Source: a virus
Direction: 5' to 3' (one strand)
IMG/VR virus record: IMGVR_UViG_3300027734_000048
Coordinates: 32,001-96,000 of that record
DNA length: 64,000 nucleotides
The stretch's first letter is position 1, and each line of letters opens with the position of its first letter. Made by a program: the position numbers and the translations under genes. The notes under the pieces were generated by a model. It was given only the letters and a program-made list of their open reading frames with translations. It had not been told where the DNA came from and ran no database searches. Below, in pieces: positions 62,434 to 63,055 of the stretch.

Positions 62434-62455
62434 TGTCAGACCCCCCTGCTATACT
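62434..62455 (+). promoter_or_regulatory. rightward early promoter, RecA-NDp/PafBC-type geometry
   Basis: TGTCAG-N10-TATACT. Confidence 0.65.
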
Positions 62456-62505
62456 TACAGTATAAAGAAAGTCAATCAAGGTGATTGAACTAGAAAGGAA
62501 TTCAA

Positions 62506-62688
62506 ATGAATTCAAATGTAATAAACACAGTATGTGTGTCACATACCCCTAATAAGTCTGCTATCTCAGACCATAATGATGAGCAATTCACATTTTGTGA
62601 AGTTTGCGAAACTAACATTGAGCGTTGGTATAACGATACCGACCCTGAGCGTCTACCTATGTGGACAGATTGGAAAGTGTCTAAATAA
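62506..62688 (+). CDS. early small Cys/His protein
   Basis: GAAAGGA RBS; C..H...CEVC. Confidence 0.65.
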   Translation: MNSNVINTVCVSHTPNKSAISDHNDEQFTFCEVCETNIERWYNDTDPERLPMWTDWKVSK

Positions 62689-62825
62689 TGAATAACATAA
62701 TTTGTTGCTTTTGCGAAAACACTTATTCCGAAGGAACGCTATTCTGCGTTTCCTGTAATGAGTATAAAGGTCTAATGACTATAAAAGAATTCAATTCTTA
62801 CTATGGAGAAAGGATTTATTCATAA
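62688..62825 (+). CDS. early small zinc-finger protein (45 aa)
   Basis: Not in the ORF track. MNNIICCFCENTYSEGTLFCVSCNEYKG...; TAATG-coupled. Confidence 0.6.
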   Translation: MNNIICCFCENTYSEGTLFCVSCNEYKGLMTIKEFNSYYGERIYS

Positions 62826-62923
62826 TGAATTTCTATGAAACATTCTTTGTAAGTGGTAACGCACTATTCTGGTTCTCTATGATCTGTTTAATAAGTGGAT
62901 TTTATTTATTCGTAAAAGAATAA
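62825..62923 (+). CDS. early small membrane peptide (32 aa)
   Basis: Not in the ORF track. MNFYETFFVSGNALFWFSMICLISGFYLFVKE; GAAAGG RBS, TAATG-coupled. Confidence 0.55.
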   Translation: MNFYETFFVSGNALFWFSMICLISGFYLFVKE

Positions 62924-62955
62924 ATTTAATTCCCTGCAAAAAATGGGACGTCGCC

Positions 62956-62995
62956 TGTGGATAACTTGTGGATAACTTGTGTGATATTTATCACA
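62956..62995. promoter_or_regulatory. two DnaA boxes plus perfect CRP-type site
   Basis: TGTGGATAA at 62956-64 and 62967-75; TGTGA-TATTTA-TCACA at 62980-95. Confidence 0.7.
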
Positions 62996-63033
62996 AAAAT
63001 ACTTTCCCGACACGCCCGAAAAAGGGGTCAAAA

Positions 63034-63055
63034 TGTCAGTGGTAGGTGTTACACT
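63034..63055 (+). promoter_or_regulatory. rightward early promoter, RecA-NDp/PafBC-type geometry
   Basis: TGTCAGTG-N8-TACACT. Confidence 0.7.

What the first reader, a model, noticed from the sequence alone, without database searches (positions are those of the whole stretch)
62434..63055. Early promoters with exact RecA-NDp/PafBC geometry: possible hijack of the host DNA-damage activator
Seen: two rightward promoters exactly 600 bp apart read AAA-TGTCAG-N10-TATACT and AAA-TGTCAG-N10-TACACT (the second is TGTCAGTG-N8-TACACT). Neither has a canonical -35. Known: the actinobacterial LexA-independent damage promoter (RecA-NDp, TGTCRG-N10-TAnnnT) is activated by the WYL-domain regulator PafBC on sensing single-stranded nucleic acid. 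Inference: phage early genes may be switched on by the host damage response that infection itself triggers, or by a phage-encoded mimic.
Basis: partly seen in the sequence, partly recalled or inferred. Interest (0 to 1): 0.8.

Follow-up and report, generated by a model that had tools for sequence, protein, structure and literature searches.

The report
Phage promoters shaped like PafBC promoters
Two promoters in an uncultured lake phage of actinobacteria belong to a set of ten laid out like the host promoters that the DNA-damage sensor PafBC switches on, so the phage may borrow that switch, but its host is unknown and nothing has been tested at the bench.

Summary
AAA-TGTCAG-N10-TATACT (62431-62455) and AAA-TGTCAG-N10-TACACT (63031-63055) lie 600 bp apart on the + strand, with no canonical -35. 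Two sites alone are not significant. They are two of ten such sites, all rightward, within 9 kb of a 116.6-kb, 36% GC phage genome. In 80 related lake-phage loci the N10 spacing gives 642 hits, against 72 or fewer at any other spacing.

The phage is not a mycobacteriophage. It is an uncultured actinophage (WhiB, GP88, DUF932; portal 47-49% identical to Streptomyces phages). It encodes no WYL, PafC-type HTH or HTH_11 domain.

The host-side test is new. In 80 sampled Actinomycetota genomes, a [T/C]GTCnn-N10-TAnnnT site upstream of recA occurs in 49 of 64 genomes with PafC and in 0 of 16 without. A matrix built only from those host sites ranks the first finding site first in the phage genome.

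The main caveat is that the host is unknown. Only 1 of 20 sampled genomes of 1.6 Mb or less has PafC.

Best reading (0.5): host PafBC reads these promoters by sigma adaptation.

This scan has noted the same thing on other DNA before (130 notes, at least 107 genomes). I found no paper describing it.

The parts
62434..62455 (+). Promoter P1. The -26 element TGTCAG is at 62434-62439, the extended -10 TG at 62447-62448 and the -10 TATACT at 62450-62455. The predicted transcript start is near 62462.
   Evidence: Sequence and pattern match. It is the top-scoring position in the whole phage genome for a matrix built from 47 host recA-upstream sites. RNA-library contigs of two runs begin at window 62475 and 62479, which is a weak hint only.
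63034..63055 (+). Promoter P2. The -26 element TGTCAG is at 63034-63039, the extended -10 TG at 63047-63048 and the -10 TACACT at 63050-63055. The predicted transcript start is near 63062.
   Evidence: It ranks 5th in the host-matrix scan. An RNA-library contig of one run begins at window 63078, which is a weak hint.
62459..62498 (+). Leader module of P1. It reads AGTATAAAGAAAGT, then a 7-bp hairpin (62472-62478 paired with 62482-62488, loop AGG), then ACTAGAAAGG (ribosome-binding site) before the ATG at 62506.
   Evidence: Alignment of P1 and P2. Thirteen such modules occur in related loci, with 5 distinct stems that are fully compensated.
63059..63098 (+). Leader module of P2. It has the same flanks as P1's module. 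The hairpin pairs 63072-63078 with 63082-63088 (loop AGG), with a different but complementary stem, before the ATG at 63106.
62506..62923 (+). P1 operon. It holds three tightly packed small genes of 60, 45 and 32 aa. The first two carry CxxC pairs and the third is hydrophobic.
   Evidence: ORFs and translations. No Pfam family at E<=0.01 for the 60-aa and 45-aa genes; the 32-aa ORF was not scanned.
63106..63992 (+). P2 operon. It holds five overlapping small genes of 57, 56, 79, 54 and 47 aa. Three carry Cys clusters.
   Evidence: No Pfam family.
62267..62410 (+). Upstream box array of P1: GGCGTGTCG (62267), GACGTC, two TTATCCACA boxes (62330, 62371), and ATGTCCGTTTT (62401).
   Evidence: These motifs are confined to genome 94.2-106.6 kb, apart from one DnaA-type box at genome 81,285.
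62945..63016 (+). Upstream box array of P2: GGGACGTC (62945), two inverted TTATCCACA boxes (62956-62964, 62967-62975), TGTGA-N6-TCACA (62980-62995), and CGACACGCC (63008-63016).

Best explanation
P1 and P2 are two of ten promoters of a special class in an uncultured lake actinophage. The class has a -26 element TGTCAG, exactly 10 nt, a -10 TAnnnT that usually has TG one base before it, no -35, and a leader of about 30-45 nt with a ribosome-binding site.

The most likely mechanism is the one solved for mycobacterial PafBC promoters ('sigma adaptation'). In it, host RNA polymerase with the housekeeping sigma factor binds the -10. The host heterodimer PafBC, once loaded with single-stranded DNA, slots between sigma domain 4 and the DNA and reads the GTC of the -26 element. 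The phage would thereby tie a 9-kb block of about 35 small genes to the single-stranded DNA that its own injection, replication or nucleases create.

Shown: the sites, their number, strand, spacing and family-wide conservation; their likeness to host recA promoters; the link between that promoter type and PafC in host genomes; and the absence of a recognisable phage copy of PafBC.

For: 1. Ten + strand sites lie in genome 94.4-103.1 kb, with 1 on the - strand. TGTCAG is the top hexamer for N10-TAnnnT, p 1.6e-8, with a sharp peak at spacing 10.
2. In 80 related loci (1.34 Mb) there are 642 + strand hits at N10 and 49 on the - strand. No other spacing exceeds 72. The median is 8 per locus.
3. 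A logo from 467 distinct sites reads A-W-W-TGTCAG-t-S-S-c-N3-T-G-n-TA-n-A-M-T, with no -35 signal. At N10 the hexamers are TGTCAG 597, TGTCGG 45, TGTCTG 22 and TGTCAC 11.
4. The published PafBC motif is tGTCgg-N10-tAnnnT, with the hexamer at -23 to -28, GTC read by PafB, and no -35 (PMC8635444 passages). PafBC is activated by ssDNA (PMC11804915 passages).
5. The host is an actinobacterium. WhiB scores 43.5 bits, and the control rings only in Corynebacterium. GP88 and DUF932 are present. The portal is 47-49% and DUF932 50-53% identical to Streptomyces phages. Many genes have a TGnTATAAT box 6-8 nt before the ATG, i.e. leaderless.
6. In 80 sampled Actinomycetota genomes a [T/C]GTCnn-N10-TAnnnT site lies 50-220 nt upstream of recA in 49 of 64 with PafC and 0 of 16 without (Fisher 1e-8).
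7. A matrix built from the 47 distinct host sites ranks the phage sites 1st (P1), 2nd, 3rd, 5th (P2), 6th and 24th of all positions on both strands. Host sites share the G+C-rich run after the hexamer, for example TGTCAGACCC.
8. No WYL, PafC-HTH or HTH_11 is found in six frames at E<=10. tblastn with a PafB/PafC pair gives a best E of 2.3.
9. Nine phage tRNAs, six of them for A-ending codons, suggest a host of higher G+C. PafC is common in larger genomes.
10. Lake metatranscriptome contigs cover the block and break at the spacers.
Against: - The host is not identified.
- PafC-HTH passes its cut-off in only 132 of 201 sampled Actinomycetota genomes, and in 1 of the 20 of 1.6 Mb or less.
- In one order of five 1.3-1.6 Mb, 40-47% GC genomes, no tandem PafBC was found. 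Three of their four WYL hits there are Pif1-helicase fusions (the fourth, in G177, is a single HTH-WYL-WCX regulator), and in the three genomes whose upstream region I read (G008, G151, G177) recA has a TTGACA/LexA-box/TATAAT promoter.
- Eight of the 10 sites here, and 233 of 397 distinct family sites, have an extended -10 that might work alone.
- The phage hexamer is far more uniform than the host consensus, and the A-rich bases before it are not seen in host sites.
- The two cultured relatives tested, Streptomyces phages Starbow and Daubenski, show no enrichment: 0 and 2 N10 hits of 14 each.
- Three spacers also hold a canonical TTGACa-N17/18-TAGTAT promoter about 100 nt upstream. RNA contigs begin there rather than at the TGTCAG site.
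- About 150 phage genes have no known function, so a phage-made reader is not excluded.
- The host sites used for the matrix were picked with a pattern that fixes the core. The genomes compared are not phylogenetically independent, and half were chosen for having PafC.
Confidence: 0.5

Rival explanations
1. A phage-made adaptor reads TGTCAG. A phage protein not recognisable by sequence (one of the many small Cys-rich or unknown proteins, or the phage WhiB bound to sigma domain 4) would redirect host RNA polymerase to the -26 element, much as T4 MotA/AsiA do at middle promoters. This would let the phage run the block in hosts without PafBC.
For: The layout (an element near -26/-30 plus a -10, no -35) is also that of T4 middle promoters (comparison drawn in PMC8635444). 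Small lake-type actinobacterial genomes mostly lack PafC (1 of 20). The phage encodes WhiB and about 150 proteins of unknown function. Canonical promoters in the same spacers could supply an early reader.
Against: No HTH, sigma, WYL, MotA or AsiA family was found among the 53 rightward ORFs (all 10 Pfam families shown). PHROGs gives only one weak 'DNA binding protein' hit, 5.4e-5. The likeness to host recA promoters extends beyond the hexamer, which a private phage system would not need. For the 99 leftward ORFs only 25 of 52 Pfam families were displayed, so this search is incomplete.
Confidence: 0.2
2. These are factor-independent extended -10 promoters. Host sigma A uses TGnTAnnnT alone. TGTCAG would then be a site for something else, for example an operator for a shut-off repressor, or a sequence that only tunes promoter strength.
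For: TG sits before the -10 in 8 of 10 sites here and 233 of 397 in the family. The same phage drives many genes from a bare TGnTATAAT. The -10 hexamers of the two classes do not differ much in quality: TATAAT in 43 of 397 against 104 of 687.
Against: A repressor site does not need single-base register with the -10. Here N10 outnumbers every other spacing by about 9 to 1 or more over 80 loci. The element lies where sigma domain 4 or an adaptor would sit. Two of the 10 sites here, and 164 of 397 in the family, lack the TG.
Confidence: 0.15
3. An alternative sigma factor, host or phage, recognises TGTCAG as a -35-like element with a short spacer.
For: The class is distinct from the phage's other promoters and is clustered in one block.
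Against: No sigma-70 family domain appeared in the Pfam results that were shown (the latter truncated). The -10 is the housekeeping TAnnnT. From recall, a 10-nt gap is too short for a sigma factor to contact both elements with domains 2 and 4.
Confidence: 0.05

Closest known systems
PafBC-dependent ('RecA-NDp', recA P1-type) promoters of Mycobacterium and other Actinobacteria, read by sigma adaptation (PMC8635444, PMC11804915; passages read)
   Same: The hexamer with GTC lies at -28 to -23, exactly 10 nt before a housekeeping -10 TAnnnT, with no -35. A G+C-rich run follows the hexamer. A matrix from host recA sites ranks the phage sites at the top.
   Different: The sites are on a phage, ten to a genome, driving small genes of unknown function rather than repair genes. 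The hexamer is nearly fixed as TGTCAG, preceded by A-rich bases. Most sites add an extended -10. The host, its PafBC and any dependence on it are unknown.
T4 middle promoters (MotA box near -30 plus -10; MotA/AsiA 'sigma appropriation'); comparison made in PMC8635444, box sequence recalled
   Same: Both are phage promoters without a -35. An element about one helical turn upstream of the -10 is read by an adaptor at sigma domain 4.
   Different: The box sequence differs. No MotA or AsiA relative was seen. The host phylum differs.
DriD-dependent promoters of Caulobacter and other WYL-activator regulons (PMC9186387, PMC13004042; listings and abstract openings only)
   Same: An ssDNA-sensing WYL activator switches on a small regulon independently of LexA.
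   Different: The activator is a homodimer with a different site and position. It is not an actinobacterial system.
Streptomyces phages of the Stanwilliamsviridae (Starbow, Daubenski), the closest cultured relatives by portal and DUF932
   Same: They are large actinophages of much lower G+C than their host, with a shared portal (47-49%) and DUF932 protein (50-53%).
   Different: They show no enrichment of TGTCRG-N10-TAnnnT: 0 and 2 N10 hits among 14 hits each at spacings 6-14.

Membership tests
PafBC-dependent promoter class | A -26 element with invariant GTC (consensus tGTCgg) at -28 to -23 | tested here: met
   TGTCAG is present in all 10 + strand sites. In the family TGTCAG occurs 597 times and TGTCGG 45 times at N10. 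The definition comes from PMC8635444.
PafBC-dependent promoter class | Exactly 10 nt between the hexamer and a housekeeping -10 TAnnnT | tested here: met
   In the genome, spacing 10 gives 10(+)/1(-) hits and spacings 6-9 and 11-15 give 0-3. In 80 loci there are 642 hits at N10 and 72 or fewer at any other spacing.
PafBC-dependent promoter class | No -35 element | tested here: met
   The logo shows no conserved -35 positions. The sigma-70 scan finds none at P1 or P2.
PafBC-dependent promoter class | Likeness to bona fide host sites beyond the core | tested here: met
   A matrix from 47 distinct recA-upstream sites ranks phage sites 1, 2, 3, 5, 6 and 24. Caveat: the core was fixed when the host sites were picked.
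PafBC-dependent promoter class | The cell in which it works encodes PafB and PafC | tested here: inconclusive
   The host is unknown. PafC-HTH is found in 132 of 201 sampled Actinomycetota genomes, but in 1 of 20 of 1.6 Mb or less. The MAG that holds binned contigs of this phage family has tandem WYL genes and a PafBC-type recA promoter, but the binning is weak evidence.
PafBC-dependent promoter class | Transcription depends on PafBC and rises with ssDNA or DNA damage | not testable with these tools
   This needs reporters or in vitro transcription.
Phage-encoded WYL/PafBC mimic | A WYL, WCX or PafC-type HTH protein in the phage | tested here: not met
   PF13280, PF19187 and PF08279 give 0 matches at E<=10 in six frames. 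tblastn with a PafB/PafC pair gives a best E of 2.3. WCX was not searched on its own.
T4-type middle promoter (sigma appropriation) | Phage-encoded MotA-like activator and AsiA-like co-activator | tested here: inconclusive
   Neither is among the Pfam families of the 53 rightward ORFs. For the 99 leftward ORFs only 25 of 52 families were displayed. Neither family was searched by name.
Extended -10 promoter | TG one base upstream of the -10 hexamer | tested here: met
   Present in 8 of 10 sites in this genome and 233 of 397 distinct family sites. P1 and P2 both have it.

The most novel reading that the evidence does not exclude
The phage infects one of the abundant, genome-streamlined lake actinobacteria that have lost PafBC. 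It brings its own unrecognised sigma adaptor, one of its small Cys-rich or unknown proteins or its WhiB working at sigma domain 4. This adaptor reads TGTCAG at -26. It would be a phage-borne counterpart of PafBC or MotA/AsiA in Actinobacteria, perhaps descended from or mimicking the host system.
Probability: 0.17. Interest if true: 0.85.

Novelty: new variant of a known kind. Interest (0 to 1): 0.6.

Why it matters
PafBC-type promoters are known only from actinobacterial chromosomes, where they run the LexA-independent DNA-damage response. A whole family of abundant lake phages carrying ten or so such promoters would be the first case of a virus wiring a gene block to that single-stranded-DNA sensor. 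The alternative, a phage carrying its own adaptor, would be new as well.

It gives a testable prediction about the unknown host. Across the genomes sampled here, this promoter type upstream of recA occurs only where PafC is present, so the host should carry pafBC.

It also offers compact natural promoters for testing sigma adaptation outside mycobacteria. Four full-text searches turned up no paper describing phage promoters of this type (listings, titles and abstract openings only).

Tried and rejected
Host identification did not succeed.
- A scan of genome contigs with the phage WhiB found 4 loci in three MAGs (Acidimicrobiaceae, Saccharibacteria, Chitinophaga) on contigs of 4-10 kb. These are most simply phage contigs that were binned by mistake.
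- The phage RNR and WhiB, searched against 201 Actinomycetota genomes at strict thresholds, hit only that same MAG, G001. The hits were 94-95% identical RNR pieces and 69-70% identical WhiB genes on small contigs, plus one 46% identical RNR on a larger contig.
- The phage tRNA cluster hit tRNA-Glu genes in 169 of 201 genomes at 79-93% identity and does not discriminate.

Genome-wide counts of the motif in candidate hosts showed no enrichment.
- G023: 13 of 80 TGTCAG hits are at N10, counted by eye from the coordinates.
- G203: 5 of 59.
- G001: 19 hits against 17 for the reversed control, 4 of them on a binned phage contig.
- Background is about 9 per spacing, so a small regulon would not show.

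Other dead ends:
- Comparing -10 quality between the two promoter classes did not separate them.
- megablast of window 60000-64000 against the phage collection found nothing.
- ARAGORN found no tRNA in the window itself.
- RNA-library contigs cannot show transcript starts, strand or level. I use their break points only as weak hints and make nothing of uncovered parts or depths.
- The ACS Infect Dis 2025 paper on pafBC and mycobacteriophage resistance is known to me only from a citing sentence in PMC12848934 and is not held.
- Supplementary tables of PMC6802176 (host predictions for lake actinophages) are closed and might name a host for this family.

Rejected: a mycobacterial host (36% GC; closest relatives are Streptomyces phages), and LexA control (no CGAAC-N4-GTTCG box in the phage).

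Unpublished genomes: the tallies include up to eight genomes flagged unpublished (G004, G021, G051, G085, G091, G123, G150, G176). None of the 80 recA loci, and no sequence quoted here, comes from them.

Full report
**What is there.** The window is bases 32,001-96,000 of a single 116,566-bp virus record of 35.8% G+C, estimated complete. AAA-TGTCAG-N10-TATACT lies at 62431-62455 and AAA-TGTCAG-N10-TACACT at 63031-63055, both on the + strand and 600 bp apart. Each has TG one base before the -10. A generic sigma-70 scan lists 17 promoter-like sites in 61200-64000, and none ends at either -10, so neither site has a canonical -35. Within the window alone the pattern is not significant: 3 matches, 0.98 expected, and 10 of 100 shuffles reach 3.

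**It is a promoter class.**
- In the whole genome TGTCAG-N10-TAnnnT occurs 10 times on the + strand, all between 94,434 and 103,117, and once on the - strand.
- Of all hexamers, TGTCAG is the one most associated with N10-TAnnnT. Eleven of its 46 occurrences have it, p 1.6e-8, and the next hexamer reaches 1e-4. Spacings 6-9 and 11-15 give 0-3 hits.
- Nine of the ten sites sit about 30-45 nt before a ribosome-binding site and an ATG. The tenth (97,418) overlaps a start codon 57 nt after another site and may be fortuitous.
- A protein of the block (DUF932, 340 aa) has 530 confirmed relatives in IMG/VR. In the best 80 loci (1.34 Mb, 33.5-40.7% G+C) TGTCRG-N10-TAnnnT occurs 642 times on the gene strand and 49 times on the other. 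No other spacing exceeds 72. The median is 8 per locus, range 1-14.
- A logo of 467 distinct sites reads A-W-W-TGTCAG-t-S-S-c-N3-T-G-n-TA-n-A-M-T, with nothing conserved where a -35 would lie.
- With only GTC fixed, the hexamers at N10 are TGTCAG 597, TGTCGG 45, TGTCTG 22 and TGTCAC 11.

**P1 and P2 are paralogous modules.** They share more than the promoter. Both have AGTATAAAGAAAGT, then a 7-bp hairpin with an AGG loop whose stem differs between the two but stays complementary, then ACTAGAAAGG before the ATG. Thirteen such leaders in related loci have five distinct, fully compensated stems. Each module drives tightly packed genes of 32-79 aa, several with CxxC pairs. The seven scanned (the 32-aa ORF was not) match no Pfam family.

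**What the phage is.**
- It is not a mycobacteriophage. The portal is 47-49% identical, and the DUF932 protein 50-53% identical, to Streptomyces phages of the Stanwilliamsviridae.
- The genome encodes WhiB at 43.5 bits, and among 14 control genomes the model rings only in Corynebacterium. It also encodes GP88 and DUF932.
- Other genes include a RecA-like protein, a DnaB-like helicase, a primase, class II RNR, ferritin, Hsp20 and thioredoxin.
- Genes run leftward from 1 to about 91.7 kb and rightward from there to about 115 kb.
- Many leftward genes have TGnTATAAT 6-8 nt before the ATG, i.e. leaderless transcripts from bare extended -10 promoters. The TGTCAG class is therefore a second, separate class confined to one block.
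- Six lake-water or freshwater metatranscriptome runs hold part of the block. Three hold 69-81% of its sampled words.
- Their contigs break at the spacers. Contigs begin 13-17 nt after the predicted starts of P1 (two runs) and P2 (one run). At three other spacers they begin instead after a canonical TTGACa-N17/18-TAGTAT promoter about 100 nt upstream of the TGTCAG site. Contigs cannot show transcript ends, so these are weak hints.

**Comparison with the known system.** The published PafBC motif is tGTCgg-N10-tAnnnT, with the hexamer at -23 to -28. PafB reads the GTC, there is no -35, and PafBC inserts between sigma A domain 4 and the DNA (PMC8635444, passages). PafBC joins the polymerase only when loaded with ssDNA (PMC11804915, passages). 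The phage sites meet every sequence criterion.

**The host side, tested here.**
- The PafC-type HTH passes its cut-off in 132 of 201 sampled Actinomycetota genomes.
- I fetched the region upstream of recA from 80 of them. The other forty were mostly chosen for having PafC and a genome of about 3 Mb or less.
- A [T/C]GTCnn-N10-TAnnnT site lies 50-220 nt upstream of the RecA domain in 49 of 64 genomes with PafC and in 0 of 16 without. Fisher p is 1e-8, and the genomes are not phylogenetically independent.
- Many of these genomes also have a LexA box about 50-60 nt further upstream.
- Host sites share the G+C-rich run after the hexamer, for example TGTCAGACCC, which is striking in a 36% G+C phage.
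- A matrix built from the 47 distinct host sites places P1 first, P2 fifth and other TGTCAG sites second, third, sixth and 24th among all positions of the phage genome. The core was fixed when the sites were picked, so only the flanks are independent.

**What speaks against a host PafBC.**
- The host is unknown. Attempts through WhiB, RNR and the tRNA cluster led only to a 3.8-Mb Acidimicrobiaceae MAG (G001) that holds several small contigs of this phage family, probably by mis-binning. That MAG does have tandem WYL genes, a PafC HTH and a TGTCAC-N10-TACGGT site 94 nt before recA, at about 70% G+C.
- Only 1 of the 20 sampled genomes of 1.6 Mb or less has PafC. This is G023, whose pair matches the solved PafB and PafC chains of 7p5x at 3.7e-13 and 1.6e-18.
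- In one order of five genomes of 1.3-1.6 Mb and 40-47% G+C, no tandem pair was found. Three of the four WYL hits are Pif1-helicase fusions (the fourth is a single HTH-WYL-WCX regulator), and in the three genomes read recA has a TTGACA/LexA-box/TATAAT promoter.
- Against that, the nine phage tRNAs (Asn, Asp, Met, Ile-UAU, Gly-UCC, Glu-UUC, Gln-UUG, Lys-UUU, Arg-UCU) mostly serve A-ending codons. This suggests a host of clearly higher G+C.
- The phage has no WYL, PafC-HTH or HTH_11 domain at E<=10 in six frames and no tblastn match to a PafB/PafC pair.
- The two cultured relatives tested show no enrichment of the motif.

**Verdict.** The promoters are of PafBC type by every sequence test, the phage has no recognisable mimic, and that promoter type goes with PafC in host genomes. 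The host, the dependence on PafBC and the timing remain unshown. My probabilities are:

| Reading | Probability |
|---|---|
| Host PafBC reads the sites | 0.5 |
| Unrecognised phage adaptor | 0.2 |
| Factor-independent extended -10 promoters | 0.15 |
| Alternative sigma factor | 0.05 |
| Something else | the rest |

**Earlier notes and literature.** Earlier notes of this scan describe the same layout in this genome and in at least 107 others. I treated them as leads and tested the claims above myself. Four literature searches gave no paper on phage promoters of this type, judged from listings and abstract openings only.

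Noticed in passing
window 62267-63016, and L003:2000-12700 (genome 94.2-106.6 kb): Every spacer of the rightward block carries a recurring set of short boxes: GGGACGTC (7 places), TGTGA-N6-TCACA (CRP/GlxR-like, 8), TTATCCACA (DnaA-box-like, 9 in the genome, 8 of them here), GGCGTGTCG (6) and ATGTCCGnTTT (6). None but one DnaA box lies elsewhere in the 116.6-kb genome.
   Followed up: partly
window 62459-62498 and 63059-63098: P1 and P2 share a structured leader. It has invariant flanks around a 7-bp hairpin with an AGG loop. 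In relatives there are five different stems, all fully compensated. It may be a site for a translational regulator or a stability element.
   Followed up: partly
L003:2177-2205, 4594-4623, about 5860-5888 (genome 96.2, 98.6, 99.9 kb): Canonical TTGACa-N17/18-TAGTAT (or TATTAT) promoters lie about 100 nt upstream of three TGTCAG promoters, so these operons have tandem promoters. RNA-library contigs begin 14-39 nt after their predicted starts.
   Followed up: partly
window 23515-24195, 48814-49317, 55137-55874 and many other leftward genes: Many structural and other leftward genes have TGnTATAAT 6-8 nt before the ATG, i.e. leaderless mRNAs from bare extended -10 promoters. This habit is typical of actinobacteria.
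   Followed up: partly
window 61400-62430: About 1 kb has no convincing gene between the leftward and rightward blocks. It holds a leftward TTGACT-N17-TAGTAT promoter (62256-62228), two terminator-like hairpins and two DnaA-type boxes. It could be a divergent control region or a replication origin.
   Followed up: no
L001:17563-17636; L003:8706-8780; L003:18765-19319: There are nine tRNA genes (Asn, Asp, Met, Ile-UAU, Gly-UCC, Glu-UUC, Gln-UUG, Lys-UUU, Arg-UCU), seven of them in one cluster. They mostly read A-ending codons, which suggests a host of higher G+C than the phage.
   Followed up: partly
G001 contigs C61, C69, C75, C95, C102, C106: A public Acidimicrobiaceae MAG holds several small contigs that are 69-95% identical at protein level to this phage, one with four TGTCRG-N10 sites. 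This is probably viral contamination of the bin, or possibly a host hint.
   Followed up: partly
L132:1465-3018 (G203), also G177 and G208: Small low-GC actinobacterial genomes that lack PafBC carry a 517-aa Pif1-helicase with a C-terminal WYL domain (PDB 8bns, E 4e-188). It was found in 3 of 5 genomes of that order.
   Followed up: partly
window 36569-61222 and L001: There are five 2OG-Fe(II) oxygenase genes, a carbamoyltransferase, an APS-kinase-like gene and a sulfotransferase-like gene among the structural genes. This fits earlier notes on a virion-modification system. I did not study it.
   Followed up: no
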